From positions 36,394,001 to 36,458,000 of the forward strand of contig OZ024744.1 of the NCBI GenBank assembly GCA_964016885.1: DNA of 64,000 bases, in the 5' to 3' direction. Within the stretch, counting starts at the first letter, position 1; every line of letters begins with the position of its first letter. The notes under the pieces are model-generated. The model ran no database searches and was not told the origin of the DNA. It saw only the letters and a list, made by a program, of their open reading frames with translations. A program made the position numbers and the translations under genes. The DNA comes from Eledone cirrhosa (taxonomy: Eukaryota). Shown here piece after piece: positions 411 to 64,000 of the stretch.

Positions 411-584
411 CACGTCTCAGCCTCATTATGCTATTATTTATTCGTCTGTCCATTCTCCTTGTAACAAACATCTTTGGCTATTACATCTGCTTGCATTTTG
501 TACAGATTAATAGTATATATCCTATTAAATGGCGGAACAATATTGCTTCTATTTTGTTTATTTTTTGTTATTATTATTATTATT

Positions 585-6000: not shown

Positions 6001-6434
6001 GGAGACCCTGGGTGTCGAAGACGATCAGCTGTTCGCTCTCTTCAAGAGAACTTTCAGACAGGGGCCTATGGACAACTTTCAGAAATCCCTGGCCTCGCAG
6101 TGCTACCGGGGAGCGTTATCGGTTCGGGATAAGCTCTACAGACACGGAAGTGCCGTCAGCTGAGCCTGTCCGAGATGCGCGCAGGGCGACGAAACGGTCC
6201 TCCACGCACTCGTTCAGTGCCCGAGGATTGCTGACTTGTGGAGCTATGTCGAACATTTGCTGTCGCGTGTAGGACGAATCCAGTTATGGACTGAGTCTAT
6301 TGTGCAGATAGCCCCGCCATTCTCCTTTAATGAGGAGGAAGGGCTGGCAGTTTTCATCTGCCTGGTGGCCTTGGCGAAAGAGATTGTGTGGTGGACAAGA
6401 TTGAAAGGGTTGAAAATGGACAAGTTTCACTTGA
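3035..6434 (+). pseudogene. Tx1 ORF2 (APE endonuclease-reverse transcriptase), disrupted
   Basis: APE motifs SINARGL, VSETR, GDWN, SYLDR, TDH, GPGYWKLN; RT motifs GKSPALDG, ITLLNAEFKILAK, LDQSKAFDRVDH, QGTPLS; CPRC...ETVLHALVQC. Confidence 0.9.
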
Positions 6435-8000: not shown

Positions 8001-8019
8001 TCAATATATATATATATAT

Positions 8020-18129: not shown

Positions 18130-18440
18130 TATATATAAAAATAAATAAACAAACATATACACACTCCACCACGCGCATATACTTAGAAAATAAGCTGTCA
18201 CATAGGCGTATATGTATCAACTGGCATAGACAAATACATACATATACATGAAGTCAATATAATAATAAATAAATAAATGAATAAGAACAAAACATTTTTA
18301 ATGTCATAAATAAAAAAATAAAGAATGAAAAAATAACCCGTTGACAACGATAAGAGAGAGGAGAGGGGGAAACAAATAAAAATAAACAAACACTCTTGGT
18401 AAGTAATTGCACAAAATAATATATATATATATATACATAG

Positions 18441-19651
18441 TCATTAGTTAAGCAAAACAAGGCCACAAATTTCACAAGGAAGACGTTATTTAAAGAGTGT
18501 TAGCTTAGTTGTAGTTTAATGTAAGGAATAAGGAGTGTAATTATAGTTTAACATAAGGAATAATAATAATAATAATATCCGTTTACAATTGTTTCGCTAC
18601 TCCATATAATGTTTCTGAATCAAATGATTATAGATAATTATTGATCTGGTTCAGATGAAGATAAGAAACTTAGGTAAAAATTATGGAGGAGCTCTTCAGA
18701 ACTTCAAAAGAGATAATGAAAATATTGATAAAGATACGATGGAATAAGGAATATAAAGTAAGGTAAAGAAAGATGGTTACATCAATGTAATGTTCCATAT
18801 ATTGGTATTTCACGACGGTTTCCTGGGTCTATCTATTGTCTGCTATAGGCAAGCATTTTTCTTCTGTCGAGGCTGTATTAAGCGAGATCTGCCTATGCGT
18901 AACAAAATGGCCACCTAAGGACATATTTACCTTACTAATTAGAGACGGGATTCAAGGAAAGTAACTCCTTGAAAATTTAGAAATTGTAGGTATCACGACC
19001 TCAACCGATTAACGATTGAAAGGAGGTAACTATTATCTGTCAACATGGAAGGGCAAATTCCTTCGCCAACAGAATATTCGCCAAACATAGTCATCTAATC
19101 TCACTTTTACTCATAGCTAACATGTTAAATATTTAACCAAGACTGGGATAATTATAAGTTACCTCCCCTACACTGTCTCTCACTTAAACTCATTAGCACT
19201 TCTTCGCTATAAATCAACTACAATTTCTATATTTTCAAGGAGTTACTTCCCTTGAAACCCGTCTCTAATTAGTAAGGTAAATATGTCCTTAGGTGGCCAT
19301 TTTGTTACGCATAGGCAGATCTCGCTTAATACAGCCTCGACAGAAGAATAATGCTTGCCTATAGCAGACAATAGATAGACCCAGGACACAGTCGTGAAAT
19401 ACCAATATATGGAACATTAAATTCATGTAACCATCTTTCTTTACCTTACTTTATATTCCTTATTCCATCGTATCTTTATCAATATTTTCATTATCTCTTT
19501 TGAAGTTCTGAAGAGCCCCTCCATAATTTTTACCTAAGTTTCTTATCTTCATCTGAACCAGATCAATAATTATCTATAATCATTTGATCCAGAAACATTA
19601 TATGGAGTAGCGAAACAATTGTAAACGGACATTATTATTATTATTATTATT
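18441..19651. mobile_element. Non-autonomous foldback element with long inverted arms; distal right arm displaced to 26234-26333
   Basis: 18578-18989 is inverted at 19218-19629; (AAT)n on the left and (ATT)n on the right; 18441-18540 is inverted at 26234-26333. Confidence 0.85.
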
Positions 19652-24748
<5,097 letters not shown>

Positions 24749-24754
24749 GTTGTT

Positions 24755-25345
24755 ATACCTTGAATCTCAGTCATTGATGTTGGTTAACTGGAAAGTCCGT
24801 TGGAATGAATATCAAGCCACTACCTGCAGCCTCAGATATTCAGGACGTATCGGAGGGTTCTTGTTGTTCCAAGCAAGCATGCCTTTTGAAGCGTTCCAAA
24901 AAGCGTGAAGGGGCCGAATTTCTTTAACCATCCCTGGAAACTTTTGGAGATAGTCCCCAGTCCGCCTATGACAATCGGGATCACTTTGCCTTCATGGCAG
25001 TTCCAAATCCTTTTCACCTCCCACTTTAGGTCCTGGTATCGGTTAATTTTCTCCCTCTCCTTCTCTTGCACTCTCGTGTCGAAAGGGCAGGCCACATCCA
25101 CAATCAAACACGATCTTTTTTCTTTGTCCACAACCACCAGTTCAGGTCTATTGTGTTCCAGTTTTTTGTCCGTCTGTATCCTAAAATCCCACAGCACCTT
25201 CACCTGATTGTTCTCCATCACCGCCTCTGGCCTATGCTCATACCATTTCTCAGAATGTGGTAAATTGTTTACTTTGCACAGGTGCCAGTGGATCACCCTG
25301 CCCATCACATCGTGTCTCCAGCCCTTATAGTGGGTCTGGACTAGG
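24755..25345 (-). mobile_element. R4/Dong-like family B, 5'-truncated copy (RLE domain and 3' UTR)
   Basis: LWDFRIQTD..NRPELVV..IVDVACP..EKINRYQDL..PIVIGGLG; ATT arrays on both sides. Confidence 0.9.
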
Positions 25346-25377
25346 TTATTATTATTATTATTATTATTATTGTTGTT

Positions 25378-26233
25378 ATTCCTTGAATCTCACTCATTGA
25401 TGTTGGTTAACTGGAAAGTCCGTTGGATTGAATATCAAGCCACTGCCTGCAGCCTCAGATATTCAGGACGTATCGGAGGGTTCTTGCTGTTCCAAGCAAG
25501 CATGCCTTTCGAAGCGTTCCAAAAAGTGTGAAGGGGCCGATCTTCTTCAACCATCCCTGGAAACTTTTGGAGATAGTCCCCAGTGCGCCTATGACAATCG
25601 GGATCACTTTGACTTCATGGCAGTTCCAAATCCTTTTCACCTCCCACTTTAGGTCCTGGTATCGGTTAATTTTCTCCCTCTCCTTCTCTTGCACTCTCGT
25701 GTTGAAAGGGCAGGCCACATCCACAATCAGGCACGATCTTTTTTCTTTGTCCACAACCACCAGGTCAGGTCTATTGTGTTCCAGTTTTTTGTCCGTCTGT
25801 ATCCTAAAATCCCACAGCACCTTCACCTGATTGTTCTCCATCACCGCCTCTGGCCTATGCTCATACCATTTCTCAGAATGTGGTAAATTGTTTACTTTGC
25901 ACAGGTGCCAGTGGATCACCCTGCCCATCACATCGTGTCTGCAGCCCTTATAGTGGGTCTGGGCTAGGTGTTTACACTCGGACACAATGTGAGCCACAGT
26001 CTCCTCTCTCTCTCCACAGATCCTGCACAGTGGGCTAGCCTCCTCCTTGTAAATATGGTGCTTCAACCACTTCGTTTTGAGGGCCTGCTCCTGCGCAGCC
26101 ATTAGCATTCCTTCTGTAGCCTTTTTGAGGTCTCCTCTTCTCAACCAGTTCCATGTCTGTGGATCTCTAAATTCAGTTTTCTCAAAGAAGGTACTATGAA
26201 GGGATTTTCCCTTAAGGCTGCTCTTCCTCCTTG
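25378..26233 (-). mobile_element. R4/Dong-like family B, 5'-truncated copy (CCHC and RLE)
   Basis: AAQEQAL, CRICGEREETVAHIVSEC, RHD, NRPDLVV; near-identical to 24755-25345 and 63015-64000. Confidence 0.92.
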
Positions 26234-26518
26234 TTACACTCCTTATTCCTTACATTAAACTGCAAATATGTTGACACACTTTAAGTAACGCCTTCCTTGT
26301 AAAATTTGTGGTCTTGTTTTGCTTAACTAATGAATATTTCGAGCTCTGTGCACCTAATCTCTGCATGAACCCAGCCATCTAGCTGTCTTCCACTCCATAT
26401 TGCACATTGAGCCTTTACGCTTTTGGCTTCTAACGAATTCACCAATCTCTCTTCTCCTCTCCTATTTCCATCTCTCTCTTTAAGATTGGTTTACTCTTGA
26501 ACCGTGTATAAATATACC

Positions 26519-44741: not shown

Positions 44742-47700
44742 GTGCTGGGATTGTATGGAGCTAGTGGATAGGGGAAGAGGGTGCAAGAGCCTCACCAACC
44801 TGCTCAGACGTTTTGAACTGTCTGACAGGTATCGACTGGATCACCCGAATGTGCCAATGTGGACATGGACAAACCGTATCGGGTCATCCAGATCGTATCT
44901 CGATAGGGTATTCTGCAGAAAACTAGATAAGGTTAGTATAAGTTGTCCACAATTTAAAATAGTCGACTACACAGACCACAAATTTGTGATCTGTGAGGTC
45001 GACATAGACAGACTTCATAGACAAGGGCCTGGTTACTGGAAGCTGAACGCGTCTTTCCCGGCGCGCAAAGCCTACCAAGACCGGATTAGCGTATTACTTA
45101 AGCGGTTGTTGACGGGAACGGTCGTCAACAACAGGTGGTGGTTCGCCCTGAAAAGGGCAATTAAAGTAGAGTCGATTAGGTTTGCAAAGGACTAGTGATA
45201 GAGGAACATAGAGTAGAGGGAGAGCTAGTCAGAATGCTAGAAGAGGGGTTTGGGACAAGCAACGCAACCGACGTGTTTGCGGCGAGATTGGCATTCGAAC
45301 AATTCTTCAACGCAAAACACGAAGGCTGCGTTGTTAGAGCTAGAGCGCGTGCTCTGAAACACGAGGGGACAAAAGCCTTCAAATTGGCCCGAGTGGCAGA
45401 GGCGCGACGTGGAAACAAAGCCACAATTCGGTCATTATCTGAGCAAAACGGGTGAGGGTTGCTCGAACCCGAGCAGATGTATGAAGCTTTTCAGCAGCAA
45501 TTTGCTGAACTGTTCGGGAGCAGCGGCGGCCTGGATCGGGGCATGGACTTCAGTGCATACCTCGACGGACTGCCTCGGCTCTCGACGACCGCAGCACAGT
45601 GTTGCGAAGAGCCAATAACCTCCGGTGAAATACGGGAAGCGATGGCTAACTACATGAGGGGTAAATCGCCAGGTTTGGATGGTCTGCCCTACGAGCTTTA
45701 TGCATTTATGCCAAACTTGTTCGGTGACCTCTTGGCAGACGTCTACTGCAACTGGCAGCAGAACGGGAGCATTCCCAGTTTTATAAGCCGGGGAGCGGTG
45801 GCGCTGCTGAGAAAAGACCCGATCAAGGGGGATGTTATCGATAATTTCAGGCCCATTACTCTGCTAAACGCAGAGTTCAAGATTTTGGCCAAGGTCTTAG
45901 CAACGAGGTTGGCGCTTCTCGTCAAGGGTCTGGTGGGAAAGGCGCAGGCATGCGCCATTCCGAACAGATCCATACACGACCACCTCCACCTCATGCGATA
46001 CATCATAGATAGGGTGGTTAAGGAACCTGGCATGGGTGGGGGCCCTGATCAACTTGGATCAATCCAAAGCATTCGATAGGGTCGACCATCGGTACCTGGC
46101 GGCGGTCCTCGAGGCAGCCGGTTTCGGGCCCGTTTTCAGGAGTTGGATCGCTGCGAAGTACAGCGACATCTGCTCGGTTGTGAGGGGGAACCGTCACCTG
46201 TCGCAGCCGTTCAGCATCATGCGCTTGGTCCGCCAGATTTGACCCCTCTTGTCCTTCTTGTACGTATTGGCTCTCGATCCGTTACTGCACAAACCGGGGG
46301 CGACGAGGGGCGTCCCACACGAACTAGGATGCGGGAAATCCGAGTCGGCTTACTCTGACGACGTCACCGTGGTGGTATCGAGCACCAGACACATCCAGAT
46401 GCTCGGCACCGCTCTCAAGGAATATGAAGCGGTGACAGGAGCAAAGATAAAACAGGAAAAGTCGGTAGGTTTGCAGCTCGTCACCTGGAAAGGCAAGTCC
46501 ATGGCGTCCGACAGCGTCGTGGGGCGTTGGACGGACGGACCGGTTAAATTGCTCGGGGTCTGGTTCGGATCGGACCTCCAGATGGAGAAAAACTGGAACG
46601 AGGTGACGAGCAAGGTGGCATCCCTCACCTATAAATGGGCCGAGAGGTGGCTGTCCCTGAAAGACCGGGCGGAGGTGGCGAATGCGTACATTGCATCCGT
46701 CATCTGCTACCGCCTCACCGTCGTCCCTTGCCTCGGCCCACCTCTCACCAAAATGGAGCGCCTCCTCTTCCGCTTTTTGTGGAAGGGACGCGCTCCCATG
46801 GTCAGACTATCCATCTGCTGTCAACACCCTTTGCGTGGAGGACTGGGCATGCCATGGCTGATGATGCGCAAACATGCGCTGAGGCTGAGGCATCTCTGGT
46901 GCTTCCTTGACGGTGAACAGGTGTGGTCGCTGTTCGCCAGGCATGTTTTTCCACAGCTCGTCTCCTTGACGCTGCTGTCCTTGGTTGGCAGGAAAAGCCC
47001 GAGGGATAGCGCTTGGAAACTGGCATGTCTGCAGGCGCTCACTGCCCTCTACCAGCTGGGCACTGATATAGGTGGAACATCCACCTTCGTGTTCTATAGA
47101 GGGCTAGTGGAGGGGAAGAGCGACGGCGTTCTCGGAGAGATCCTGGGCGTCGCAGAAGATCAGCTGTTTGTTCTCTTCCGGAGAACTATCAGCCCAGGGC
47201 CTATGGATAACTTCCAAAACTCCCTGGCCTAGCAGTGCTACCGGGGAGCGCTGCCGGTTCGAGATAAGCTCTAGAGGCAAGGAAGTGCGGTCAGCCGAAC
47301 CTGTCCGAGAGCGCGCAGAGCGACGAAATCGTCGTGCACGCACTCGTTCAGTGCCCGAGCATTGCTGACTTGTGGAGCTATGTCGAACAGTTGCTGTCGC
47401 GTGTAGGACTGATCCGGTTATCGACTGAGTCTATTGTGCAGATGGTCTCGCCGTCTTCCTTCGAGGAGGAAGGGCAGGCGGTTTTCATCTGCCTGGTGGC
47501 CATGGCGAAAGAGATTGTGTGGTGGAACAGGTTGAAAGGGATAAAGACAGACACTCTCCACTTCGGCGAATCCCTAATTAACTTTTTCAAGTTTCACTTG
47601 AAGAGGAATATCAGGGAGGATTTTATTGTTTATATATATATATACGTTTCTATGTCCTTTTTTTCTTTTCTTATATAAATAATTAAAATATTTACACGCA

Positions 47701-47786
47701 CAAAACCCACATCGTACCCTCCTGTACCGTCCTGTGCCGTCTGTAATGTTTTCTTGATGTCAGCCCTTGTGGCCAATAAATAAATC
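44742..47786 (+). mobile_element. Tx1-clade LINE, copy 2 (5'-truncated, 3' end present)
   Basis: APE C-terminal half, RT (GKSPGLDGLP, YSDD) and degenerate CCHC; ends GCCCTTGTGGCCAATAAATAAATC then (ATT)n. Confidence 0.92.
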
Positions 47787-47801
47787 ATTATTATTATTAT
47801 T

Positions 47802-50800
47802 GTTCTTTGAGTCTCAGTCATTGATGGTAGTTATCTGGAAAGTTTGTTGAAATGAATATCAAGCCACTCCCTGCAGCCTCAGATATTCAGGATGTATCGG
47901 AGGGTTCTTGCTGTTCCCAGCAAGCATGCCTTTTGCAGCGTTCCAAAAAGCGTGGCGGGGCCAATTTTCTTTAACCATCCCTGGAAACCTTTTGAGATAG
48001 TACCTAGTGCGCCTATGACAATCGGGACCACTTTGACTTCATGGCAGTTCCAAATCCTTTTTACCTCCCACTTTAATTCCTGGTATCGGTTAATTTTCTC
48101 CCTCTCCTTCTCTTGTACTTACGTGTCGAATGGGCAGGCCACATCCACAATCAGGCACGATCTTTTTTCCTTGTCCACAACCACCAGGTCAAGTTTATTG
48201 TGTTCCAGTTTCTTGTCCGTCTGTATCCTAAAATCCCACAGCACCTTCACCTGATCGTTTTCTATCACCGCCTCTGGCTTATGCTCATACCACTTCTCAG
48301 AATGTGGTAAATTGTTTACTTTGCATAGGTGCCAGTGGATCACACTGCCCATCACATCATGTCTCCAGCCTTTATAGTGAGTCTGGGCTAGGTGTTTACA
48401 CTCGGATACAATTTGAGCCACAGTCTCCTCTCTCTCTCCACAGATCCTGCAGGTGGACTAGCCTCCTCCTTGTAAATATGGTGTTTCAACCACTTCGTTT
48501 TGAGAGCCTGCTTGCGCAGCCATTAGCATTCTTTCTGTAGCCTTTTTAAGGTCTCCTCTTTTCAACCAGTTCCATGTCTGTGGATCTCTGAATTCAGTTT
48601 TCTCAAAGAAGGTTCTATGAAGGGATTTTTCATGAAGGCTGCTCTTTCTCCTTGTTATTTCCTCCTTGGACATCTCCTGGTCTATTGTCCTCTCCTTCAG
48701 TACAATTCTGAGCATTGGCTCCTTACTATTTGTGTAGGTCATTTTTCTCCATCTGAACACAGTCCGCTATGCTGATAAGACCTCTTCCACCTTCAGATCT
48801 CCTTAAGTAGAGTCTATCGACATCACTCCTCTTGTGGAACATGTTGTAGATAGTCAATAGTTTCCTAGTTTTCCTATCCATTTCTTTTTGTTCAGCAACA
48901 TTCCATGTCAGAATTCCCGCACTGTACCTAATAATAGACACAGCTCGGGAATTTACTGCACTTATGGCATTCCTACTGTTCAGATGTGACTTTAATACGC
49001 TCCTTACTCTCCGAAGTATTCAGATCTTATCAATTCCTTCATTTTTTTGTTCTTGATGTGATCAGCCTCCAGAACACCCAGATACTTGTATCAGTGTCAA
49101 TTTCCTTTATCATCTTTACCTGTTGGTACCTGGATTCCGTTACTTCTGCTCAATTTACCCCTCTTCATCACAAGGACTCCACACTTACTAATACCAAATT
49201 GCATACATATATCATTGTTGAAAATATGGACAGTGTCAACAAGCACATCCAACTCCTTCTCACTCTTCCCGAAGGGCTTAAGATCGTCCATGAAGAGGAG
49301 GTGATTGATGGTAAGCTCTCCCTTTCCCAACTTGTATCCTGCTCTCACTTTTCGCAGTATAATGGTCAGGGACATCAGGGCAAGGACAAACAACAGAGGG
49401 GACAGACTATCTCCCTGGAAGAAACCTCTCTTGATCTTCACGCTTCCCAAGGATTCTCCAGCTGATGTTAACTCTGTTTTCCAGGACATCATACTTTTGC
49501 CCAACAACTGTTTGATGTTATCTGCCACCTTGAAGATCTCCAGGCTTTTGGTGATCCAAGAATGAGGCACCATATCAAATGCCTTTCTGTAGTCTATCCA
49601 TCCCATGGCAAGACCAGTGTGTCTCCTCTTGCAATTCATCATTACCATCTTATCAATAAGTAACTGGTCCTTTGTACCACGGGACTTCTTTCGGCATCCT
49701 TTCTGTTCGTCAGGTAACAAGTTGTTTTTATGTGGGGGTGATGGTAGATTTCCTCAGACATAATGCTTGTCAACAGTTTCCACATTACGGACAGACATCT
49801 GATAGATCTATAGTTGGCAACATCATTACCCTAGAATCGGTCTTTCATTACCAGAACTGTGGTACCTTTTATCAACCACTCTGGTACCTCACCTGACATC
49901 AAGCAGTCATTGAACATGGTTGTCAGTTTCGGGTGGAGGGATGTTATATTTTTAATCCAATACCCCTGCACACCATCTGGGCCTGGTGATTTCCAGTTGG
50001 TTAGTTTTTTCGCCTGCCCCTTAAGAGTTTCAACTGTGATACTCAAATCAGTTTGTTGGTGTGCCTGTTCACTAATCTCCTTTTGTACTGTCTCAATCCA
50101 CACTGCCTGGTCATTATGTTTAACATCCTGTTCCCATATTCCTCTCCAGAATGTCTTAGTTTGTTCCGCCTCAGGGATCAAGTCGTTGCCTCTTTCTTTC
50201 CCTTCAAGCTGTTCAAACAGCATCATCTGGTTGTTGTCAAAGATGCGGTTCTGTCTATACTGACTGACTCTGCTCTCGTATCGCCTAATTTTTGCACTCT
50301 TTGCTACAATGCGTTGCTTCAATTCCTCTATGATAATATTTAGATTTTCCTCCTAGTTTTGTACTTTATTTCCAGTCTATTTTTAGTGTCTATGTTTTTT
50401 AGTGTCCCGTTCAGTAAGGACTCAAGCTTTCCAATGTCATTTCTCATTTCCCTGATTTGACCATTCAGTGGTTTGTTCCACTAAGGTTCTGATCTTTCTT
50501 GTTTGTTGTTTCCTCTCGCTTTTATGCCAAGTAATTTCCTCACCGCATTTGCTGTTGCTTTGAGGATATCGTTGCACTGGTGAAGGCTCCTCGCCTCAAT
50601 GTATGGGATGACTTTGTTTACCTTAGCTGTTGTTTCTTTTAACTTTTTCCTGTCTACAAATCTTAGGTTCATAGGTTTCCCATTATCATTGTTCAATTCA
50701 TCTACCACTAAGTTTAGGATATCAACCAAATCTTGTCCTAGCCCGTCAGCATTCATCTCCTCAATGGCCCCTGTTCCAGGTATTATTTATTTCAGTATTC

Positions 50801-52169
50801 AGATCATTGTCTGCTTCGGATGGTTCCTCCGTTCTCTCAACCTCTTCACCTTCATTTCCCACTGGCTCGTTTGCCTGGCATACTCCACTCTCCATTTCCA
50901 AGCTAATCGCTCTGCTCAGTTCCTCCAGTTCCAGCTCGCTTATCCACCCATTAGTTCTTATTACCCGAGCCTGCGCAGCCAATTTTTGTTCATCTAATTT
51001 AAATAGACCAATCTCGTTCCAGATGTTATGCATCCGTTTCCTATAGCCTTTCTCCTTGGGGTTACTCTTCAGGTAACATTGCATAACAGTTCTATTCAAT
51101 TCTTTCGTCCAGTTGGTTCTGGTCCCTTTCTTTCTTCTTTTTCCTCCGGCACCAGCAGTATTTGGTTGACAGCCAGGTCCCTGCTGCTGAGCCAGGGAGC
51201 ACCTGCTGGGTGAGAGTCTGTCACATGACATTCCAGTCTCCACTTCACCGTTATTCGAACTGTTTAGGTTCGACATTTAAACACTCTTATCGAGGATTGG
51301 TGCATGTATGGTTACATAACCACCGGTGATTTCATCACCCCCGGTGATTTTAGTGTGGCACTATCACGTTGTAGACGAACATAAATAAACAAACAAACAA
51401 ATAGGTAAAAAAAAACCCAAAAAGAATAAGCATAAGTTTCATTGTAATGTAATGTTTGAATGCCTGACTTAGTTTTTATTTTCTCCTTCTCTGTCTGTTT
51501 GTTTTTCTTTTCATTTTTCTTTTCTTTACGATTTTCGTTGTTGCTGTGGTGTTTTGATTTTGATTTTTGGTTTTTTATTTTTTGACCGGGTCATCAAATC
51601 AGTCTATTTATATCTTTTGATGCCTTCCTCTTTTAGTGGGGGTACTACGATGCATGTCTTAGCAGGAGGTAGTGGGAGAGAATAGCGGCGGTAGCGATAA
51701 TGAGGCAGCGGTCCTGGTGTTGGTGGTGTTGTGCTAGTAGTACTTAGCAGGAGGTAGTGGGAGAGAATAGCGGCGGTAGCGATAATGAGGCAGTAGTGGC
51801 GGTGATGTGATCGTAGTACTGTAGTGATGATGGTGTTGAAGTTGAAGTAGAAATAGAAGTTGAGGTAACTTGACTCGAGTTTTTGGCGTGGTAGTGGTGA
51901 TGGTGGCGGTGGTGGTGTTGGTGATGAAATTATTTAGCCATTTTGCCATGTTCCTCTTTTTCGACTATAACATTTCTGATCCAATATTAAATATTGGGGC
52001 CCTATACCGTAAAGTGATGCGTTGTTGCTTGCTGAACGTTAAAAATGTAATCTTATACTCCATTTGTAATAAGAATTATTCTATCACAGTTGTTTTAAAT
52101 AAGTAAAACTCAAAAACTTACGGCAACGATTCCATAACGATATATCTCCACCATGTGCGTTTTCTTCCC

Positions 52170-52170
<1 letters not shown>
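47802..52170 (-). mobile_element. R4/Dong-like family B, full-length copy
   Basis: Disrupted ORF 51276 to 47879 with [39 protein letters not shown] and RLE; (ATT)n at both ends. Confidence 0.93.
47879..51276 (-). pseudogene. Family B RT-CCHC-RLE polyprotein, disrupted
   Basis: Colinear fragments 50761-51276, 50481-50756, 49831-50322, 49097-49720, 48726-48941, 48458-48760 and 48119-48421. Confidence 0.9.
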
Positions 52171-52204
<34 letters not shown>

Positions 52205-55200
52205 GGCGACCTACGTAGTAAATCGTATCATCGTGAGCTCCGCAAAGGTTTGATATTTTCAGTTATTTAAATTTGCCATTTATGGAAAATTTTTATTGTT
52301 AACTATATATAAGTGCACACACATTGATTTCCGAAAAGGATACTCAAAAATATTGGGGCCTTGAACCCAAAATTTAAACTTTTTATAATTATCAAACAAA
52401 CAATTTTTTCTTTGAAAAATAATGGATGACTCAGATTCACTCCTTCCTCGCAATCCAACACCTCACACCGAAACCACCATTGTAAATATTGCTACGTTTG
52501 CCAACACTGGAATTGTAAGCAGTAGCAATATTTTAAATTTGTCTCAGGCAGACGTTCATTTCCCGCCATTACCAATGACTGCAGGTGTTAAAGCCGCCAT
52601 CACCACCACCACCAACACCACCACCGCGACAACCCCCACCCCCACCACCACCACAGCGACAACACAAACAAAAGAAAAAAAAAATTAAGTCATGATATCG
52701 AAATGAATTCAACCAAAATGAACTCTTCCACACCGAACACCACTGACACCACCACCACCACAACTGAAACTAAAATTAACAATAGCAAAAATAACGATAA
52801 TAACAACAGCAACAATGATTTTAAGAAAACTACCCTGAGTTTTGCCAGAGTAGCAAAAACGTGCGAAGCGATGCAGGTAACTCAGGAAGAATTAGACGAA
52901 GCCAAAGGAATGGTAAAGAAAGATGGGTACAGCAAATTCTTCAGCCTCACCCCCACCTAATAAAACGGAGCAACGTCGCCTATGCACCGTGTCTTATCGG
53001 ACAATGAACATAAAATCGCGCCGAGTGGAACGGGCATCTGAGTCCCAAATCCAAAAAGCTTTGGGACATGTGTGGGCAAAAGTATGGAACCGTGGAGTGT
53101 TCTTTGAAACACCACAGGAGGCCAGAGAACACTCCATGGCCTCATTAAGAAGTGACGACTTTACACTCATCCCAAGCTATTGTGGCCAGAGACTTGTGAA
53201 GATCAAGGTGACCCACGTTCCACCGGCCATCGAAATTCCCTGGCTAATGGCTGCCGTCCTCGCTGGCATCGAGGCCAATACCAAAATAATAGAAATAGCA
53301 AAAGAAAAGCAGGAGAACTGGTCCGGATCTGGGATGCAGCTCCTGATCCAAGCGGACCATAAAAGCATTGAGGAGATGCCAGAGGTAATAGACCTCTGAC
53401 GGCAGCCACCTCACCGTAATTGTCGAGGGCAGAAGACCTAGGTGTGTCGTTTGTGGTGAAGGAACCCACCTAAGGGCTTTCTGCCCTCAGGCTAAAAGGT
53501 TGAGGCCACCTCTCTTATCCACCATAGTGACTCAACCATCAACACCACCAGCAGCAGAAATAGCAGCAACAACTGTAGCAGCAACAACATAATCAACTGT
53601 AACAGCAACAACCCCAGCAACAGTAGCAAAACCAACACCACCACCACCCAACGCCCCAGAACTAGCACCAGCGCCTACACCATCCACCACGCCACATCCA
53701 AAACCAACGCCTGTGGAGGATTTTCCACTCCCCGGCTTATCGCAACTGGAGACAGATTGTGACGACGAGGAGTGGGAAACGGTATCAGGAAAAAAGAAGA
53801 AAAAAAAGAAACCGAAAAAGAAAAAATTCTCTTCCTTCCCCCTCAAAAAACAAAATACAGAGGGAAACAAATAAATTATCGAACAAGAAAGTTAAGACAA
53901 ATATGCCACCATCCACACCAGCATCACCAAACCCATCACCACAAACACCAACACCATCACCATCATTAACCCCAACACCACCATCACCAACACCACAAAA
54001 GTCACCAAAAATTGTAAAAGAAACAAACCCACAACAAACGAAAACAAAACAAAACAACCAAAACGATACACACTAAACACTACGTGCAACACAACACCAG
54101 CATCACAGAAAAAGACTACACAACAACCCAAAAGTTCACACCACATACAAATCACTCGCACATACAAATCACTCGCATCACACAGAAAACGTACACGACA
54201 CTAATCAAAAAATTCCCCAAATTCATCGGAGACTTCCGACAAACACTCTCCAGCAGGATTTATAAGGACATCCTTCCGGAGGAGGCCACAAGCAGTGAAA
54301 AGGATGGACAAACCATCCTTCCTCTACGAGAAGTAAGGTAAGTGGTCTTTCCCATCTTTTCCACTCCATTTCAACATGACCTCAATCATAAATGCGCGTG
54401 GCTTGGGGTCGTCATGGAAGCAGGGCCACCTGCTCAACGACCTCAGGTCACTAAACATAGATGTAGTGGCCATCAGCGAGACCAGAATCTCCGAAGCACG
54501 GGCCTTCGCACCGATCTTCGGCGGCTACGATGTGTACGTATCTCCCAGCCGTCCGGGATCGGGGGTGGATTTTCTGTGCTTTTTCGGAGAGGTTTGGATC
54601 TTGCCATACGGGCCATCTTCCTGTACCCAGAAGGTAAGTTGGTGGTGCTGGACGTGACCAGTGGAGACGGGCAAGCTTTCAGGTTAGTGGCCGTCTATGC
54701 CCCGACAGGAACAGGGCGGCCTGATTTCTTCCGGCGTCTGGAGACCTATCTTGGAACGTCCCGCTCTTTAGTGTTAGTGGGCGACTAGAACGGGATCTTA
54801 GATGCACGCTGGGATTGTGTGGGATTAGTGGATAGGGAAGGAGGGTGCAAGAGTCTCACCAACCTGCTCAGACGTTTTGAACTGTCTGACAGGTACCGAT
54901 TGGATTTCCCGAATGTGCCAATGTGGACTTGGACAAATCGCATAGGGTCATCCAGATCATATCTAGATAGAGTAGTTTGTAGAGAAATAGATAGGTCTAG
55001 CATAGGCTGTCCACAATTCAAGATAATCAGCTACACGGACCACAAATTCGTGATCTGTGTGCTTGACTTAGATAGGCTTCATAGACGAGGACCCGGCTAC
55101 TGGAAGCTAAATGCGTCCTTACCAGCGCGCAAGGTCTACAGAGACCGGATTAGCGAACTAGTTAAGCGGGCGTTGACGGGGGCCATCGACAACAACAAGT

Positions 55201-58027
55201 GGTGGTTTGCTCTGAAAAGAGCAATTAGAATAGAGTCCATTAGGTTTAGTCAGACTTTAGCAATAGAGAAAAATAGAGAAGAGGGAGAATTAGTTAGAAA
55301 ATTAGACGAGGCGCTTAGTAAAGGCATCGCGACCGACGTGCGTGCGGCGAAATTGGCCCTCGACCAATTCAAAGCACGAAGGCTGCGTTGTCAGAGCTAG
55401 GGTGCGTGCTCTCAGACACGAGGGGTTGAAATCCGTTCAATGGGGCCGATTGGCGGAGGCGCGTCGTGGCAACAAAGCCACGATCCGGTCTTTGGTGGGC
55501 CACGACGGGCGTATGCTGCTCGATCCCGGGCAAATGTGTAAAGCTTTTCAGCGATACTTCGCTCAGTTGTTCGGGGGCAGCGGAGGGCCGGATCGAGGGA
55601 TGGACTTGAGTACCTACCTCGACGGATTGCCGCGGCTCTCGGCCACTGAGGTGGAGTGTTGCGAAAAGCCGATAACAACCGCTGATGTACGGGGGGCAAT
55701 GACTAGCTGCACAAATGGTAAATCGCCTGGTTTGGATGGTCTGCCCTATGAACTTTACGTACATATGCCAGACTTGTTCAGAGGCCTCTTGGCGGACGTC
55801 TACTGCAACTCGCAAACAGAACGGGAGAATTCCCAGCTCTGTGAGCCGAGGAGCTGTGGCGCTGCTGAGAAAGGATCCGAACAAGGGGGATAACATAGAT
55901 AATTTTAGGCCCATAACTCTGCTAAACCCAGAGTTCAAGATTTTGGCCAAGGTGCTAGTAAAGAGATGAGGCTTGTCGTTGGTGGTCTTGTGGGAGAGGC
56001 GCAGACATGCGCCATTCCCGACAGATCCATCCACGACAACCTCCTCCTCGTGAGATACATCGTGGAGAGGGTAGCTAGGGTACCTGGCACGGGTGGGTCC
56101 TTGATCAATTTAGATCAGTCGAAAGCTTTCGATAGGGTCGACCATCGTTACTTAGCGGCAGTCCTGAGGGCGGCTGGCGTTGGGCCCGTCTTCAGAGGCT
56201 GGATCGCTGCCATGCACAGCGACATCTGCTCTGCGGTGAGAGTGAACGATCACCTTTCGGAACCGTTCAACATCATGCGCTCGGTCCGCCAAAGATTTCC
56301 CCTCTCGTCCGTCTTGTACGTATTGACTCTCGAGCCATTACTCCACAATTTGGAGACGTTGAGGGGCGTCCCGCGCGAACTAGGATGCGGAAGATCAGTA
56401 TCAGCATATGCGGACGATGTCACCGTAGTGGTGTCGAACGCCAAACACATCGAGTCGATCGACACTACACTAAGAAAATACGAAGCGGTGACAGGAGCAA
56501 TGATCAACCAGGAAAAGTCAGTGGGCCTGCCGCTCGGCACCTGGAGAGGCAGGTCCATGCTGTCCAACAGCGTCATCGGGCGCTGGACGGACGGACCAGT
56601 TAAATTGCTCGGGGTCTGGTTCGGTTCGGATCTCCAGACGGACAAAAACTGGGACGAGGTGACGAGCAGGGTGGCTTCTCTCACCCAGAAATGGGCCGAG
56701 AGGAAGCTATCCCTGAAACGTCGAGCGGAGGTGGCGAACGCGTACATCGCGTCTGTCATCTGCTACCGCCTGACCGTCGTACCTTGTCCTAAGACCCGCC
56801 TGACTGCACTGGAGCGTTTGCTCTTTCGCTTCTTGTGGAAGGGACGCGCTCCAATGGTCAGACAGTCCATCTGCTGTCAACACCCGCTACGTGGAGGGCT
56901 GGGCATGCCGTGGCTGATGATGCGCAGACACGCGCTCAGGCTACGACATCTCCAACTCTTCCTCGACGGTGATCAGGTGTGGTCTCCGTTTGCTACACGC
57001 GTCTTTCCCCAGCTCGTCTCCTTGACGGAGCTGCAGTCCTGGGTCAAGCGAAGACCGAGAGGGAGCGCTTGGAGACTGGAATGTCTTCAGGCGTTCACAG
57101 CCCTCGCGCAATCGGGCAATGTGATCGGTGGAAACTCCACCTTGGCGTTCTATAGAGGATTAGTGGAGGGGAAGAGCGACGACGTGCTTGGGGAAACTCT
57201 AGGCGTCTACGAAAATCAACTAGCCAATCTCTTCGGAAGAACTTTCGGGCCGGGGCCTATGGACAACTTCCAGAAATCCCTGGCCTGGCAGTGCTACCGA
57301 GGAGCTTTGCCAGTTCGGGATAAACTCTACAGGCATGGAGGTGCCGTCAGCCGGGCATGTCCGAGATGCGCGCAGGGCGACGAAACCGTCCTGCACGCAC
57401 TCGTCCAGTGTTCGAGCATTGCTAACTTGTGGGTTTATGTCGAACACCTGCTGTCGCGTGTGGGACGGATCCAGCTATCATATGACTCCATCGTGAGGAT
57501 TGCCCCGCCCTCTTCCTTTAGCCGGGAAGGGCAGGCAGTTTTTATCTGTCTGGTGGCCATGGCGAAAGAGATAGTATGGTGGACACGTTTGAAAGGGCTG
57601 AAGACGAGCACTTACCTCTTCGGTGATGCCCTGATTAACTTTTTCAAATTTCATTTGAAAAGGAAAATCAAGGTAGAAAGGGAAGTGCTCTCTTCCCAGC
57701 ATTTTGTTGAAAGATGGGTGAGAGAAGCAAGAATGGCCCGAGTGAATGGGCCTACTCTGAGTGTGTGTCTGTAAATTAAAGGTGGAAAACTGGGAGATGG
57801 CATTTGCCCTGGCGGTCAGGCTCACTGTGGCTTTTTAATGGGCTTTCTCCACGAATGTCCCTCGAAAGTCTCCCCCCAATTGGGGATTTTTTTTCATTGT
57901 TCTATTATTACGTCCCCTGTTTCTTGTTTTTTTTACACGCAGAAATGCCCATTTGTACCGCCCTGTATTGTTCTGTACTGTCCTTAATGTCTATTTTATG
58001 TAAACCCTTTTGGTTAATAAAGAAATC
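52205..58027 (+). mobile_element. Tx1-clade LINE, copy 3 (full length, diverged subfamily)
   Basis: (ATT)n on both sides; ORF1 ~52422-54341 with CVVCGEGTHLRAFC; ORF2 ~54376-57774 with APE, YADD and CPRC..H..C; 3' UTR ending AACCCTTTTGGTTAATAAAGAAATC. Confidence 0.94.
54376..57774 (+). pseudogene. Tx1 ORF2, disrupted (602-aa RT and C-terminal segment open)
   Basis: INARGL, ISETR, SYLDR, LDQSKAFDRVDH, SAYADDV, KLLGVWF, GGLG, CPRCAQGDETVLHALVQC. Confidence 0.92.
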
Positions 58028-58045
58028 ATCATTATTATTATTGTT

Positions 58046-61000
58046 ACAGTTGCATTTATCTTGCTTTATGTTCATACGAGTTATCACCAAGTCACAACCA
58101 GTGACCTCAAGAGACAACAAGGTCCGCCATGTTCAAGAAAGAACATACATACTCACACATGCATCTATAGTGTTTAGACTTGTGATGTACTTATATTGAC
58201 AGAATCTTCCTTAGTATATGGGCAGTTTCCATTAGTACTATCTTTTGTATTTCTCCTATACGCGGGTTTCCTAGGATTTGCGATAAGTAATCATTAGACC
58301 CCTTAGGTATCATTCCCAGAGCGCCTACAACCACTGGTATTGTTTTAGTTCTAAATTTCCACATTTTTCCAATTTCTATCTCCAGGTCCTTATACTTGCT
58401 CAATTTTTCAAATGTTTTTATAGATACATTCTTGTCTATTGGAACGGACATATCAATTAGCAGGCATACTCTCTTTTTAAAGTCCTTCAATATTATATCA
58501 GGTCTATTTGCATCTATTTTTCGGTCTGTTTGTATGCTAAAGTTCCACAAGATTGAGATGTGATCTTCTTCAAGTATGGGAGGTGGTTGATGCTCCCACC
58601 AATTCTTTTGATGGGGCAGGTCAAAATGCTTACACATTATCCAATGTATGTATTGTGCAGCTCTGTCATGCCTGTTTAGGTATTCGGTTGGAGCTATAGG
58701 ACTGCACATTGAAATTATATGGTCAATGGTCTCTGGTTGTTTTTTTACATACACGGCATAATGGGCTGCATCCATTTTTTACTATGTTGGCTTGGTAATT
58801 TTTTGTTGGCAGACACTGATCTTGTGCTGATATAATCAGTCCTTCAGTCTCCGATTTCAGTCCAGAGGATGCCAACCACTGATGGGTTAAAGTTTTGTCA
58901 ACATCAGGATTGTTAGCTCATTCTGGGTATTTTCCATACAGAGGCTTTTCTTGCCATTTCTTAGCCAGTTTATGTAGCAGTTCTTTCTTTGCAGTTACTT
59001 TTACCTGCTTTGCTTTTTCTGTGTTTTCCATTTCAACAGTAAATGGGACTTCTGAAATTTGTAGTCCATTACTGTATCTTTGTGCATCTTTTGTAATGGA
59101 ATATGATCTTTTGATGCTTTCGTGTTTCAAAACGAGTTTGATCATCCAATCATGGGATTACCTTAGATATGTAGATAATCCAATTGTTGCAGTTTTCAAC
59201 GCAATGTCTAACTGGATTAACCCACGTCCTCCTTCTTTCCCAGGGAGATATCTTCTATCTGTATCTGCCTTAGGGTGATGCATTCTGTGCATGGTTAAGA
59301 ATTTGCTAATTTTTGTATCGAGCCTACGGATCTCTGTGCTTGACCAGTTCATGACATTGTAACTGTAGGTTACTACTGGTATGGCAAGCGTGTTTATGGC
59401 ATCGATCCTATTCCTTGCATTCAATTCCGTTCTTAAGATTGCTCTTACTCTGCGGTAACATTCCTTCCTTATCCTTTCCCTCATTGTCGAGTGCTTGAAT
59501 CCTTCTCCTTCACAAACACCTAGATATTTGTAAGTTTTTTCTTGATCAAGTTCTCTTATCACGTTCCCCCGATCAAGATTAAAGTCTGAACTTTTCAGCA
59601 GCTTTCCTCTGGTGAACGTTGCTTTGGCGCATTTATCCAGTCCAAACTCCATTTTAATGTCATCACTGAACTGCTCCACAGTGGATAATAGCCCTTACAA
59701 TTGTTCTTCATTTTTTGCAAATAGTTTCAGGTCATCCATGTAGAACAAGTGATTAATGGTTTTGTCATAGACTTTATATCCATGTTTTGTTTCATTGAGC
59801 ATTTTACTTAATGGTATAAGTGCGATGCAGAATAAAAGCGGTGATAAAGAGTCACCCTGAAAAATTCCACAATTAATATTAACTTCTCCCGCTTCCCGTG
59901 ATTTTGTTTCACTATTCAAAAGGAGTGTCGTTTTCCATGTCTTCATACTGAATGACAAAAACCTCCTGACAACGGGGGATATTTTGAAAATCTCTAAACA
60001 ATTTTCAATCCAACGGTGTGGCAAACTATCGAATGATTTTTATAATCTATCCAAGCAATTGATAGATTTTTGTGTCTATTATGACTATCTTCCAGTATCA
60101 TTTTGTTAACCAAAAGCTGATCCTTACAGCCATATGAGCCTCGTTTACACCCTTTCTGCTCAATGGGAAATAGGTCATTTGTTATCAGGTGGACATATGT
60201 ATATTCAGTTAGGACTGATGTTAAAATTTTATACATTGTGGTCAAGCAAGTTATCGCTCTGTAATTCTTGGGATTGTTTGTCTCATCATTCTTCGGAAGC
60301 AGGAATGTAATGCCGTTAACTAGCCATGATGGTATCTTTTCTGGCTCCTTAACTATTCCATTGTAAAGTTGGGCTAACAGCTCACGAGACTCTGTGAAGG
60401 CATTTATCCAAAAATTTTGTATTTTATCTTTTCCTGGGAATTTCAATTTGCTGGTTTTTCTTAGAGCCAAACGCAACTGTTCAACTGTTATATTTTCCCA
60501 TATTTGTTCCTCAAGGTGATCTGTATCTTTCATTTGTCTGTCTATCCATGGGGCATGTATATTATGAACTTTTTCTTCGGCCCAAATCTTTTCCCAGAAT
60601 TCTTGCACTTCCTTCTTGGGTGGTATTGGTTTAGCAGTTATTGTTGACTTACCAATTTTTCTGTAGAAGTTTCTTTGGTTGTTTTTGAACATATTATTGT
60701 CCTTATAGAATCTAGATCGTTTTTCAAAGCGCCTTATACGAGAAGCTTTGGCCGACACTTTTTGCTTGATTATTTCTATCAGCATGTCTATGTCACTTGT
60801 TGGTTTTATACTGTACTTTCTTTTCAATTTTGTAAGTTTAGTTTGTTTAACATGTTCACCTACTTTATAGTTTTTTAAAATTTCTATGTCAGTTCGGAGA
60901 AGGTTTATTTGGCGATCGATGTTCTCTTACCAAGTAGATTTCTTGTGGGAATTCCTTTGTTTTTTCATCTTCACTCCACATAAGTGAGTGGTGACTTTAG

Positions 61001-62933
61001 CCGATGCATAATAGAGATGATTTAAATCAGTAATGTTTAGTTTGTTTGTGATGATAATGTTTTTGATAATTATGTTAGTCTTGTGTATTATCTTTTGGTT
61101 CTGTTTGGAGTTCTGGATCTTAGGGAGGGTGTCTCGTTCCCCCATGTCAGATTCTTTCATTTTCATCCATTCGATCATAATTTCATCCTTCAAGTTGGCA
61201 CGTTCATTCTCATTCATTTCTTTATCATTTACGATCTCATTGTTTTCATTTTGAGTTTCATCTTGAGCATGCACTCCCTCCACTTTTTCGACCCTTTCTT
61301 TAATTTGTTCTGTTGTCAGTGATTCCGCCCCAACCCTGGGATTCGAAGTGTTACAATTTACCTCGTTTTCACTGACACATGTTTCATTTTCCCTTCGCTG
61401 ACTTTGTGCTAATAGCTTGATCTGATCAATTTCTATATCAGTTAGTAACTTTTTTTTAACAATATTTCTTCGTATATTGGCTAGTTTGTTACTGTCAATA
61501 TAGCCTCTGTTTTCGGGATGTTTCTTTTTCCAGTTGATATATGTCTGTTCTGTATTCGATGTATTTGATGGGTAGTACATGGCAGTGTAGAAAGCCTCAA
61601 GGATGTCTTTATTATCTTCCCTTGACCCTTTTTCTCTCTTTTTATTTGGATTTCTTGGTTGTGAGCATGGAGGGCCAATAGTAGGAGTATTTCGGTTATG
61701 GGAGGTCTCCAGCTCCGAAGTGATGGGAAGGTTTGAACCATTAGCTGATTTTTCGACCCCAGTCTGGTTCCTCTCTGAGGGACGCGGCCCTTTTTTACCC
61801 GGGTGACGGCCGAACCGGTATGAGATTTTATCATTAGACATTTACTTTATTTTGTCGCGTTTTATCCTTATCCGCCAAGGGGTAATCATTTCGTGTTACC
61901 ACTTCTAGAACGAGTGTCAACCAAGACTAGAGGGGTCGTTCTCCCCTAGAGACACAGGTATTCCCCGCCGGCCGCCATCCCGGTATTTCTTGGTCACGGG
62001 GTTTACTTTTTTGTTGTTTTTTTAAAATTGTTATTATCATGAGTGGTTCCTTAATGTGAGCATTGCGTGGCTTAAGAATGAAATTATTAATAATTGTCTT
62101 CACTCCAGGCACAAGGCCAGCAATTACCCAGTGCATTACAATAATATAATATACTTTTTGCTGAAGTTGCCTGTTATTGTTGTTGGCTATATCGGTGGTG
62201 GTGCTGGGGATTTTTCTATTGTTGGTGGGGAAGGGGGGAGCCAGCAGTACCATAGTCGCTGACGTTTGGCCGGTAGCCGGGTCACTGAGTCAATCTATTT
62301 ATATCTTTTGCTAGCCTCTCCCTTGTCTAGTGATACCGCCACCTTCCCCTTTCTTAAGTTAACAGGGGAATAGTGGGGGTAGCAATGAAGGAGTGGTGGC
62401 GGCGGTGATGGGATAGTGGTTGCAATGATGGATGGAGTGGTGGCGGCGGTGGCGTTGTCGTTACTGAGTTTTGTTGAATGGACTAGTTTTTTTTGATATG
62501 TAGTATCTATGCGTTTGTGTCGCGTATGTTTAATACATGTGTTGACATATTCTATTAATATTGGAATTAAACATTTTGTTAAAACTTGAGACAATAATAA
62601 TAGTAATTATTATTATGATGCTGGGATTGGTGGTGGTGGTGGTGAAATTGCCGTTCTCTGGCTGTTGTATTTAGTGTACACAGCGGGGTGATGGGGTAGG
62701 TGGTGTATCTAGTTTCTGGTGTTGGTGAAATTGCTGTTATTTGGCTGTTCTATATAGTGTAGACAGAGGGATTTTCTTCCATTTATAATCATTTTCTTCT
62801 TTGAATATAAAATGTATAATACAAAATTGAATATTTGAGCGATATAACAATATATTATGGAACCGAATTTTTAAGAGACTTGATTCGGTGCTTTATGCAT
62901 CATTTGTACTTAGAATTGTTATTTCACAATTGA
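58046..62933 (-). mobile_element. R4/Dong-like family A, copy A2 (lacks ~75 nt of the 5' end)
   Basis: Colinear and highly similar to 19652-24573; disrupted ORF 61841 to 58191; (ATT)n at both ends. Confidence 0.93.
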
Positions 62934-63014
<81 letters not shown>

Positions 63015-63016
<2 letters not shown>

Positions 63017-64000
63017 CTTGAATCTCAGTCATTGATGTTAGTTGGAAAGTCTGTTGGAATGAATATCAAGCCACTACCTGCAGCCTCAGATATTCAGGAC
63101 GTATCGGAGGGTTCTTGTTGTTCCCAGCAAGCATGCCTTTTGAAGCGTTCCAAAAAGCGTGAAGGGGCCGATTTTCTTTAACCATCCCTGGAAACTTTTG
63201 GAGATAGTCCCCAGTGCGCCTATGACAATCGGGATCACTTTGACTTCATGGCAGTTCCAAATCCTTTTTACCTCCCACTTTAGGTCCTGGTATCGGTTAA
63301 TTTTCTCCCTCTCCTTCTCTTGCACTCTCGTGTCGAAAGGGCAGGCCACATCCACAATCAGACACGATCTTTTTTCTTTGTCCACAACCACCAGGTCAGG
63401 TCTATTGTGTTCCAGTTTCTTGTCCGTCTGTATCCTAAAATCCCACAGCACCTTCACCTGATCGTTCTCTATCACAGCCTCTGGCTTATGCTCATACCAT
63501 TTCTCAGAATGTGGTAAATTGTTTACTTTGCACAGGTGCCAGTGGATTACCCTGTCCATCACATCATGACTCCAGACCTTATAGTGAGTCTGGGCTAGGT
63601 GTTTACACTCGGATACTATGTGAGCCACAGTCTCCTCTCTCTCTCCACAGATCCTATACAATGGGCTAGCCTCCTCCTTGTAAATATGGTGTTTCAACCA
63701 CTTCGTTTTGAGGGCCTGCTCCTGCGCAGCCATTAACATTCCTTCTGTAGCCTTTTTAAGGTCTCCTCTTCTCAACCAGTTCCATGTCTGTGGATCTCTA
63801 AATTCAGTTTTCTCAAAGAAGGTACTATGAAGGGATTTTTCATGAAGGCTGCTCTTTCTCCTTGCTGTTATTTCCTCCTTGGACATCCCCTGGTCTATTG
63901 TCCTCTCCTTCAGTACAATTCTGAGCATTGGCTCCTTACTATTTGTGTAGGTCATTTTTCACCATCTGAACACAGTCCGCTATGCTGATAAGACCTCTTC
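63015..64000 (-). mobile_element. R4/Dong-like family B, 3' part, running off the window
   Basis: ORF 63086-63955 with AAQEQAL and RLE motifs; preceded by (ATT)n at 62934-63014. Confidence 0.92.

What the first reader, a model, noticed from the sequence alone, without database searches (positions are those of the whole stretch)
44742..64000. Strand-polarised LINE array chained through (ATT)n: APE-type Tx1 and RLE-type Dong share one microsatellite target in opposite orientations
Seen: 19 kb with no unique DNA, ordered Tx1(+) / ATT / DongB(-) / ATT / Tx1(+) / ATT / DongA(-) / ATT / DongB(-). The same rule holds at 19631-26233 (three Dong copies, all minus) and at 570-782 (SINE then Tx1, both plus). 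Every intact Dong end abuts AAT in its own sense, and every intact Tx1 end abuts ATT in its own sense. Established: Dong (R4 clade) targets TAA repeats, and the Tx1-clade Kibi and Koshi families target other microsatellites. Inference: two unrelated endonucleases nick opposite strands of the same repeat, and each insertion leaves or extends the target. This would give self-growing arrays with forced head-to-head and tail-to-tail pairs. Whether an ATT-specific Tx1 family is already catalogued could not be checked.
Basis: partly seen in the sequence, partly recalled or inferred. Interest (0 to 1): 0.8.

Follow-up and report, generated by a model that had tools for sequence, protein, structure and literature searches.

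The report
Two jumping genes share ATT repeats
Two unrelated kinds of retrotransposon sit in the same three-letter ATT repeats, nearly always facing opposite ways, at thousands of places in this genome, likely because each one targets the repeat and copies it on insertion, which builds long chains of elements.

Summary
44744-64000 is five LINEs joined by four (ATT)n tracts; the array runs 7.6 kb past the window (about 27 kb, seven elements). Intact heads of two L1/Tx1-like subfamilies follow exactly ATTATTATT|G in 1,278 of 1,384 and 2,291 of 2,390 genomic copies; none of the first follows AAT; background is 0.09%. Restriction-like-endonuclease (Dong-like) elements use the same tracts in the opposite sense: 192 of 197 junctions obey the polarity. 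Empty-site controls (a 17,555-copy repeat ending in (ATT)3, and an inverted-repeat arm in the window) show the tract came first and is longer after insertion. Corrections: the first Tx1 is 5'-truncated with no tract; the SINE is not tract-specific; half the junctions are head-to-tail; tandem duplication also grows arrays; only about a third of truncated Tx1 copies keep the 5' tract. Opposite-strand priming is inferred; nuclease strand choice and RNA-tail pairing cannot be told apart. Precedents: Kibi/Koshi, Dong, SART/TRAS, Keno/Utopia. I found no ATT-targeting Tx1 in print; Repbase and Dfam were not searchable. New variant of a known kind.

The parts
44744..47786 (+). Tx1-like subfamily B, 5'-truncated in the endonuclease region, with a deletion near the end of ORF2; no tract at the 5' junction
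   Evidence: weak RVT_1 hit
47787..47801 (+). (ATT)5 tract, tail-to-tail Tx1/Dong joint
47802..52169 (-). DongB: single-ORF RT + CCHC + restriction-like endonuclease element, head intact, ORF broken
   Evidence: (RVT_1 1.2e-15)
52170..52204 (+). (ATT)11 tract, head-to-head Dong/Tx1 joint
52205..58030 (+). Tx1-like subfamily A, full length but with stops and frameshifts; ORF1 with CCHC knuckle, ORF2 APE-RT-zf-RVT, AATAAA just before the tract
   Evidence: intact relatives L215, L201
58031..58042 (+). (ATT)4 tract, tail-to-tail joint
58047..62933 (-). DongA: second RLE family (44% identical to DongB in the RT region), lacking about 65 nt of its head
62934..63015 (+). (ATT)27 tract, Dong/Dong head-to-tail joint
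63016..64000 (-). 3' end of a DongB copy with the RLE domain; continues beyond the window
   Evidence: R2 RLE match, E 0.0025
19631..26236 (-). second array: (ATT)7 / DongA / (ATT)33 / truncated DongB / (ATT)8 / truncated DongB, inside one arm of an inverted repeat
18437..18989 (+). other arm of the inverted repeat: the empty site, with (AAT)6 at 18559-18576
570..6422 (+). (ATT)5 / SINE 585-766 / (ATT)5 / Tx1-like B from 782 (rearranged, 3' end lost at about 6422)
   Evidence: (Exo_endo_phos 6e-11)

Best explanation
The region is a chain of L1/Tx1-like and Dong-like retrotransposons that sit in (ATT)n tracts in fixed, opposite orientations, and it likely grew by repeated targeted insertion in which each element duplicates part of the tract. 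Shown: fixed phase ATT|G at Tx1 heads, (ATT)n at Tx1 tails, AAT-sense tracts at both Dong ends, pre-existing tracts at empty sites, longer tracts at filled sites. Inferred: the Tx1 APE nicks the AAT strand at the TpA step (the only TpA in the repeat, in the same register on both strands, and the step L1 endonuclease cuts, recalled); the RNA, cleaved a few AUU units past the AAUAAA, pairs with that primer, so no poly(A) is copied; a second cut in the same register leaves tract on both sides. The Dong RLE would prime from the ATT strand with an AAU-ending RNA. Every insertion would turn one target into two, so arrays lengthen; tandem duplication adds to them. Seeds are short ATT runs already in other repeats and SINE tails.
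For: 1,278/1,384 and 2,291/2,390 heads in exact phase, 0 in the wrong sense; TxB heads 27 of 28; background 0.087%. Dong 3' ends 69 of 76 AAT, 0 ATT; 5'-truncated Dong 38 of 47 abut AAT; 5'-truncated Tx1 12 of 36 abut ATT, 6 more are fused to a truncated Dong in the expected polarity (hand-sorted). 192 of 197 tract junctions fit. Empty sites: repeat X ends in (ATT)3-AC-(TA)n or a one-base variant in 26 of 30 position-ordered copies, 2 are expanded, 2 hold Dong(-); L333 and L347 hold Tx1(+) at that site with X on the left and the (TA)n on the right, L333 with (ATT)12 + (ATT)6; L092 holds Dong(-) with an interrupted tract on both sides. Window inverted repeat: (AAT)6 empty in one arm, 6.6 kb of Dong in the other. 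163 Tx1 3' ends: tract starts 6 nt after AATAAA in 110, within 20 nt in 138, none has A>=8. APE motifs and YADD intact in natural copies; many TxC copies have open ORF1 and ORF2.
Against: 14 of 36 truncated Tx1 copies have no tract, tract variant or Dong at the 5' junction, and neither has the copy at 44744; these may be later or target-site deletions, or insertions outside tracts. One true wrong-sense copy (L141) and two inverted tract joints (L087, L267). Some copies sit in (TTC)n or (ACT)n (L198, L200, L213, L194), so specificity is not strict. Tract length after insertion could also come from slippage. No biochemical or transcript data.
Confidence: 0.82

Rival explanations
1. Tail-pairing sets the target and the polarity: the endonucleases are loose TpA or AT-rich nickers, and only nicks whose primer can pair with the AUU (Tx1) or AAU (Dong) RNA end are used. 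The arrays are the same, but no strand-specific nuclease is needed.
For: The TpA step lies in the same register on both strands; no poly(A) at 163 Tx1 ends although AATAAA is present; copies in (TTC)n and (ACT)n; the SINE shows a weak version of this (duplications that start with ATT, no tract). Compatible with most of the best explanation; it differs on what selects the strand.
Against: Pairing of a few bases alone predicts many insertions at short ATT matches, as for the SINE (1 of 33 in tracts), whereas 92-96% of Tx1 heads follow at least three perfect units.
Confidence: 0.35
2. The 5' tract is carried by the element: transcripts begin in an upstream tract and the (ATT)n is copied with the head, so Tx1 is not target-specific.
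For: Intact heads have the tract in 35 of 35 cases but truncated copies in only 12 of 36.
Against: Truncated copies are still several hundred-fold above background; empty sites carry the tract at the insertion point; four different heads all begin with G straight after ATT; neighbours across the tract differ from locus to locus.
Confidence: 0.07
3. The arrays come from tandem or segmental duplication of one ancestral cluster, not from independent insertions.
For: A 32 kb array at G000:C1:55.42-55.46 Mb has five TxC copies and a repeated [DongA 4184-4995 + TxC] unit; repeated units also at L056/L057 and L068/L069.
Against: In the window every neighbour is a different subfamily or has a different truncation point; thousands of loci have different neighbours; empty sites exist.
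Confidence: 0.05
4. Passive build-up or assembly artefact around microsatellites.
For: Long tracts are hard to assemble; loci were chosen by element searches.
Against: Single-base phase and strand are fixed in more than 3,500 heads, which neither passive build-up nor mis-assembly predicts; the element is covered end to end by contigs of three other public runs.
Confidence: 0.02

Closest known systems
Kibi, Koshi and crocodilian Tx1 families (Tx1 clade, microsatellite-specific)
   Same: APE-type two-ORF LINEs that insert in a simple repeat: (TC)n, (TTC)n, (TTCC)n/(TTTC)n (PMC4494074 and PMC3812793, passages read); a telomere-repeat Tx1 is cited from the anole (PMC10088271, passages).
   Different: Target here is (ATT)n; host is a mollusc-like invertebrate (inferred); relation to Kibi/Koshi not tested, no reference sequences were at hand.
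Dong (R4 clade), TAA-repeat specific; Dong, DongAg, DongBg
   Same: RLE element in TAA repeats, already known from a snail (PMC3812793, passage); Dong-R4 is abundant in octopus genomes (PMC13282606 parts 1-2 of 3; PMC8967140 passages).
   Different: Nothing new in the target; here two families (44% identical in RT) share tracts with Tx1-like elements. The HDV-like ribozyme of silkworm Dong (PMC3774820, passages) was not detected here.
SART and TRAS of Bombyx mori
   Same: Two families inserted in one tandem repeat in opposite orientations, forming arrays (PMC10088271, passages).
   Different: Both are R1-clade APE elements in telomeric repeats; here an APE and an RLE element share an interstitial trinucleotide repeat at thousands of loci.
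Keno (Tx1, APE) and Utopia (RLE)
   Same: An APE and an RLE lineage converged on one target site, in U2 snRNA genes (PMC4640811, passages).
   Different: Same 3' flank, so same orientation; a gene target; no self-renewing target or mixed arrays described in the passages read.

Membership tests
L1 group / Tx1 clade | ORF2 with N-terminal APE, RT and C-terminal zinc knuckle | tested here: met
   PF03372, PF00078, PF13966 on natural intact copy L215; best solved match human L1 ORF2, E 8e-50, against R2 at 1e-19
L1 group / Tx1 clade | Separate ORF1 with a CCHC knuckle (feature recalled) | tested here: met
   C-x2-C-x4-H-x4-C in window TxA and in L201 ORF1
L1 group / Tx1 clade | Sequence-specific insertion in a repeated target | tested here: met
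L1 group / Tx1 clade | RT phylogeny groups with named Tx1 elements rather than L1 proper | not testable with these tools
   No named Tx1 reference was returned; the label 'Tx1' rests on layout and targeting
Kibi / Koshi | Target (TC)n or (TTC)n | tested here: not met
   Target is (ATT)n; only a few copies touch (TTC)n
Dong / R4 clade | Single ORF: RT, CCHC linker, RHD and PD..D..K restriction-like endonuclease | tested here: met
Dong / R4 clade | No N-terminal C2H2 fingers, unlike R2 (feature recalled) | tested here: met
   none found in one copy of each family
Dong / R4 clade | Insertion in TAA repeats in the element's sense | tested here: met
   69 of 76 3' ends; 38 of 47 truncated 5' ends; 27 of 37 intact heads, most of the rest with interrupted AAT or (AAG)n
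Dong / R4 clade | RT phylogeny with named R4/Dong elements (against HERO, NeSL) | not testable with these tools
   1,998 homologues, none of the 120 listed named as an element
Dong / R4 clade | HDV-like ribozyme at the 5' end | tested here: inconclusive
   No Rfam ribozyme hit in 7 loci; a rough pairing descriptor gave no convincing fold

The most novel reading that the evidence does not exclude
An uncatalogued, recently active ATT-specific Tx1 lineage and two Dong lineages build a shared niche: each insertion multiplies the target for the other clade, making polarised mixed arrays of tens of kilobases, and the two unrelated clades also share a 5' UTR layout through exchange or a common internal promoter.
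Probability: 0.2. Interest if true: 0.75.

Novelty: new variant of a known kind. Interest (0 to 1): 0.55.

Why it matters
It adds a new target, (ATT)n, to the microsatellite-specific Tx1-like elements and gives a natural side-by-side case of an APE and an RLE enzyme using one three-base repeat from opposite strands. How microsatellite targeting works is described as poorly understood (PMC3812793, passage); here intact, near-identical copies exist (TxC), and the target is short and symmetric about its TpA step, so nuclease choice and RNA-tail pairing can be separated by simple swaps. It also explains where several thousand LINE copies lie in this genome and why ATT microsatellite markers there would often be multi-copy. 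Each ingredient has a precedent, so it is not a new kind of system.

Tried and rejected
HDV-like ribozyme as the cause of the fixed first G: no Rfam hit and no convincing fold by a rough descriptor; not excluded. SINE as a third tract-specific element: rejected (1 of 33). Target-site duplications outside the tract at 9 Tx1 loci with non-LINE flanks: none found beyond a TA-repeat match. Single-sequence structure model of the endonuclease: pLDDT 36, not used. Word-indexed protein search for ORF2 gave 3 hits, none named; the Atlas gave only generic APE-RT clusters. Transcript ends: no RNA holder listed; contigs of other runs cover the element but cannot show ends. Earlier findings of the scan: nothing in three look-ups. 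One paper search was swamped by unrelated uses of 'Tx1'. Not readable: Kojima and Fujiwara 2004, Fell et al. 2025, Xiong and Eickbush 1993, Osanai et al. 2004, and the supplements of PMC4494074, whose Fig. 3 lists Tx1 targets I could not see; any of these, or Repbase/Dfam, may already hold an ATT-specific Tx1. In the automatic tally, the 55 'truncated Tx, no tract' rows were dropped because many are library artefacts or internal deletions; the hand-sorted set of 73 3'-anchored copies replaces it.

Full report
The window lies at G000:C28:36,394,001-36,458,000 of a 3.0 Gb genome. The nearest named relative of the Tx1-like ORF2 is an Argonauta hians protein, 59% identical over a 495-residue fragment, so an octopod host is inferred, not shown.

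Observation. The stated order is correct: a 5'-truncated Tx1-like copy (44744-47786, +), (ATT)5, DongB (47802-52169, -), (ATT)11, a full-length Tx1-like copy (52205-58030, +), (ATT)4, DongA (58047-62933, -), (ATT)27, DongB (63016 onwards, -). All but one base of 44742-64000 match other loci at 80% or more. The array goes on for 7.6 kb past the window with two more truncated Dong copies and ends in (ATT)17: about 27 kb and seven elements. The left end has no tract. The window copies carry stops and frameshifts.

What the elements are. A natural intact ORF2 (L215) has APE, RT and zf-RVT domains, matches human L1 ORF2 best and keeps the APE motifs and YADD; ORF1 has a CCHC knuckle. At least four subfamilies occur, told apart by their heads. 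TxC, absent from the window, shares ORF2 with TxA, has copies 97-100% alike to one reference copy and many open frames. The two minus-strand families have one ORF with RT, a CCHC linker and a PD..D..K domain that matches R2; they are 44% identical in RT. Clade names rest on layout and target; no tree with named references could be built.

Genome-wide test. Of 1,384 exact TxA head 28-mers, 1,278 follow ATTATTATT and a G; none follows (AAT)3 within four bases. Of 2,390 TxC heads, 2,291 do. TxB heads: 27 of 28 have an ATT-type tract, some interrupted. In 40 evenly spaced 10 kb stretches, 0.087% of positions have (ATT)3 ending within 12 bases upstream. Dong 3' ends: 69 of 76 AAT, none ATT. Exact 3' motifs number 7,739 for Tx1 and 9,620 for DongB. 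Over 329 sequences (1.65 Mb, overlapping, chosen by element searches), 192 of 197 element-tract-element junctions have Tx1 on the ATT sense and Dong on the AAT sense: 57 Tx1-Tx1, 39 Dong-Dong, 55 head-to-head, 41 tail-to-tail. The off cases listed are a tract inside one element, a library artefact, a 3'-broken Dong, inverted tract joints and one true wrong-sense Tx1 (L141).

Target or tail? Three tests. First, truncation: 38 of 47 5'-truncated Dong copies with an intact 3' end abut AAT. Of 73 Tx1 copies anchored at the 3' end and taken from the position-ordered list (sorted by hand), 35 have an intact head, all after ATT; 36 are truncated, of which 12 abut ATT, 1 is borderline, 3 abut (TTC)n or (ACT)n, 6 are fused to a truncated Dong in the expected head-to-head sense and 14 have none of these; 2 heads were not reached. 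This is far above background but clearly weaker than for Dong, and is the main result against strict targeting. Second, an empty site in the window: 18437-18989 and 19218-26337 are arms of an inverted repeat; one arm has (AAT)6, the other has 6.6 kb of Dong copies at that point, with a short loss of flank at the last 5' junction. Third, a repeat with 17,555 exact copies of its 25-mer ends in (ATT)3-AC-(TA)n or a one-base variant in 26 of 30 copies, is expanded in 2 and holds Dong(-) in 2; two further copies hold Tx1(+) there with the (TA)n resuming after the element, one with (ATT)12 before and (ATT)6 after; the Dong copy L092 has an interrupted tract on both sides, as a target-site duplication would leave. 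So one site is used by both clades in opposite senses, the tract came first, and it is longer afterwards.

Mechanism (inferred). Under target-primed reverse transcription the primer comes from the strand opposite the element's sense: the AAT strand for Tx1, the ATT strand for Dong. The Tx1 junction phase is the TpA step, which lies in the same register on both strands and is the step cut by L1 endonuclease (recalled). Among 163 Tx1 3' ends the tract starts 6 bases after AATAAA in 110 and none has a run of eight A, which fits an RNA ending in AUU units that pairs with the primer. Whether the nuclease or this pairing chooses the strand cannot be read from the genome. Each insertion leaves tract on both sides, so targets multiply. 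Tandem duplication adds: a 32 kb array on C1 repeats one Dong fragment plus TxC unit. The SINE is not tract-specific (1 of 33 heads), though its ATT tails are used as targets.

What is known. Passages read: Tx1-clade targets (TC)n, (TTC)n, (TTCC)n/(TTTC)n (PMC4494074); Dong in TAA repeats, including a snail element, and the statement that microsatellite targeting is not well understood (PMC3812793); Keno and Utopia converging on one U2 site (PMC4640811); SART and TRAS in opposite orientations in telomeric repeats, and a telomeric Tx1 (PMC10088271); a 5' ribozyme in silkworm Dong (PMC3774820). Octopus repeat papers list Dong-R4 and L1-Tx1 but gave no target analysis in what I read (PMC13282606 parts 1-2 of 3; PMC9115989 and PMC8967140 passages). 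Searches found no ATT- or TAA-specific Tx1, but Repbase, Dfam, the 2004 and 2025 screens and the supplements of PMC4494074 were out of reach.

Verdict. Interest 0.55.

Noticed in passing
heads at 52205 (+), 52169 (-), 782 (+), 24647 (-); L062, L121, L266, L217, L074, L076, L001: The 5' UTRs of the Tx1-like and Dong-like families are all about 200-215 nt and align in register, with short shared blocks. Weak: 5 of 12 cross-clade pairs are reached by at most 6 of 600 AT-matched genomic windows in both comparisons; a Dong-head profile scores Tx1 heads up to 9.6 bits against 3.1 for non-Dong background, E 0.16 at best; the reverse search does not beat background. Shared promoter or UTR exchange is possible.
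   Followed up: partly
18437-18989 and 19218-26337: Inverted repeat with arms of about 550 bp and a 228 bp spacer, 89-97% alike, one arm interrupted by the Dong array; possibly a foldback element.
   Followed up: partly
L349-L378, L333, L347, L092: A very abundant repeat (17,555 exact 25-mers) ending in (ATT)3-AC before (TA)n; likely the end of a TA-targeting DNA transposon; its internal tract is a target for both LINE clades.
   Followed up: partly
G000:C1:55,423,600-55,455,650 (L311-L315): 32 kb array with five near-identical TxC copies, several with open ORF1 and ORF2, and a duplicated Dong fragment.
   Followed up: partly
L198, L200, L213, L148, L154, L160, L169, L194: Some copies abut (TTC)n, (AAG)n or (ACT)n, Tx1 on the TTC sense and Dong on the AAG sense; drifted tracts or relaxed targets ((TTC)n is the Koshi target).
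   Followed up: no
28570-32949 (+) and 43642-44229 (-): Helitron remains: Helitron_like_N and PIF1 domains.
   Followed up: no
about 6420-7620 (+): Penelope-like fragment with a weak GIY-YIG match (E 3e-4, below cut-off), joined to the broken end of the Tx1 copy at 782.
   Followed up: no
585-766, 27302-27481, 36919-37100: A 182 bp SINE covering about 2% of the background sample, with short duplications that start with ATT; its mobilising LINE was not identified.
   Followed up: partly
9603-11677 (-): Three open frames of 191-224 codons with no Pfam match, between two copies of a 486 bp direct repeat (8019-8504, 11964-12446).
   Followed up: no
L201:360-6363: The TxC element is covered end to end by contigs of public runs labelled as three organisms; flanks could not be read.
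   Followed up: partly
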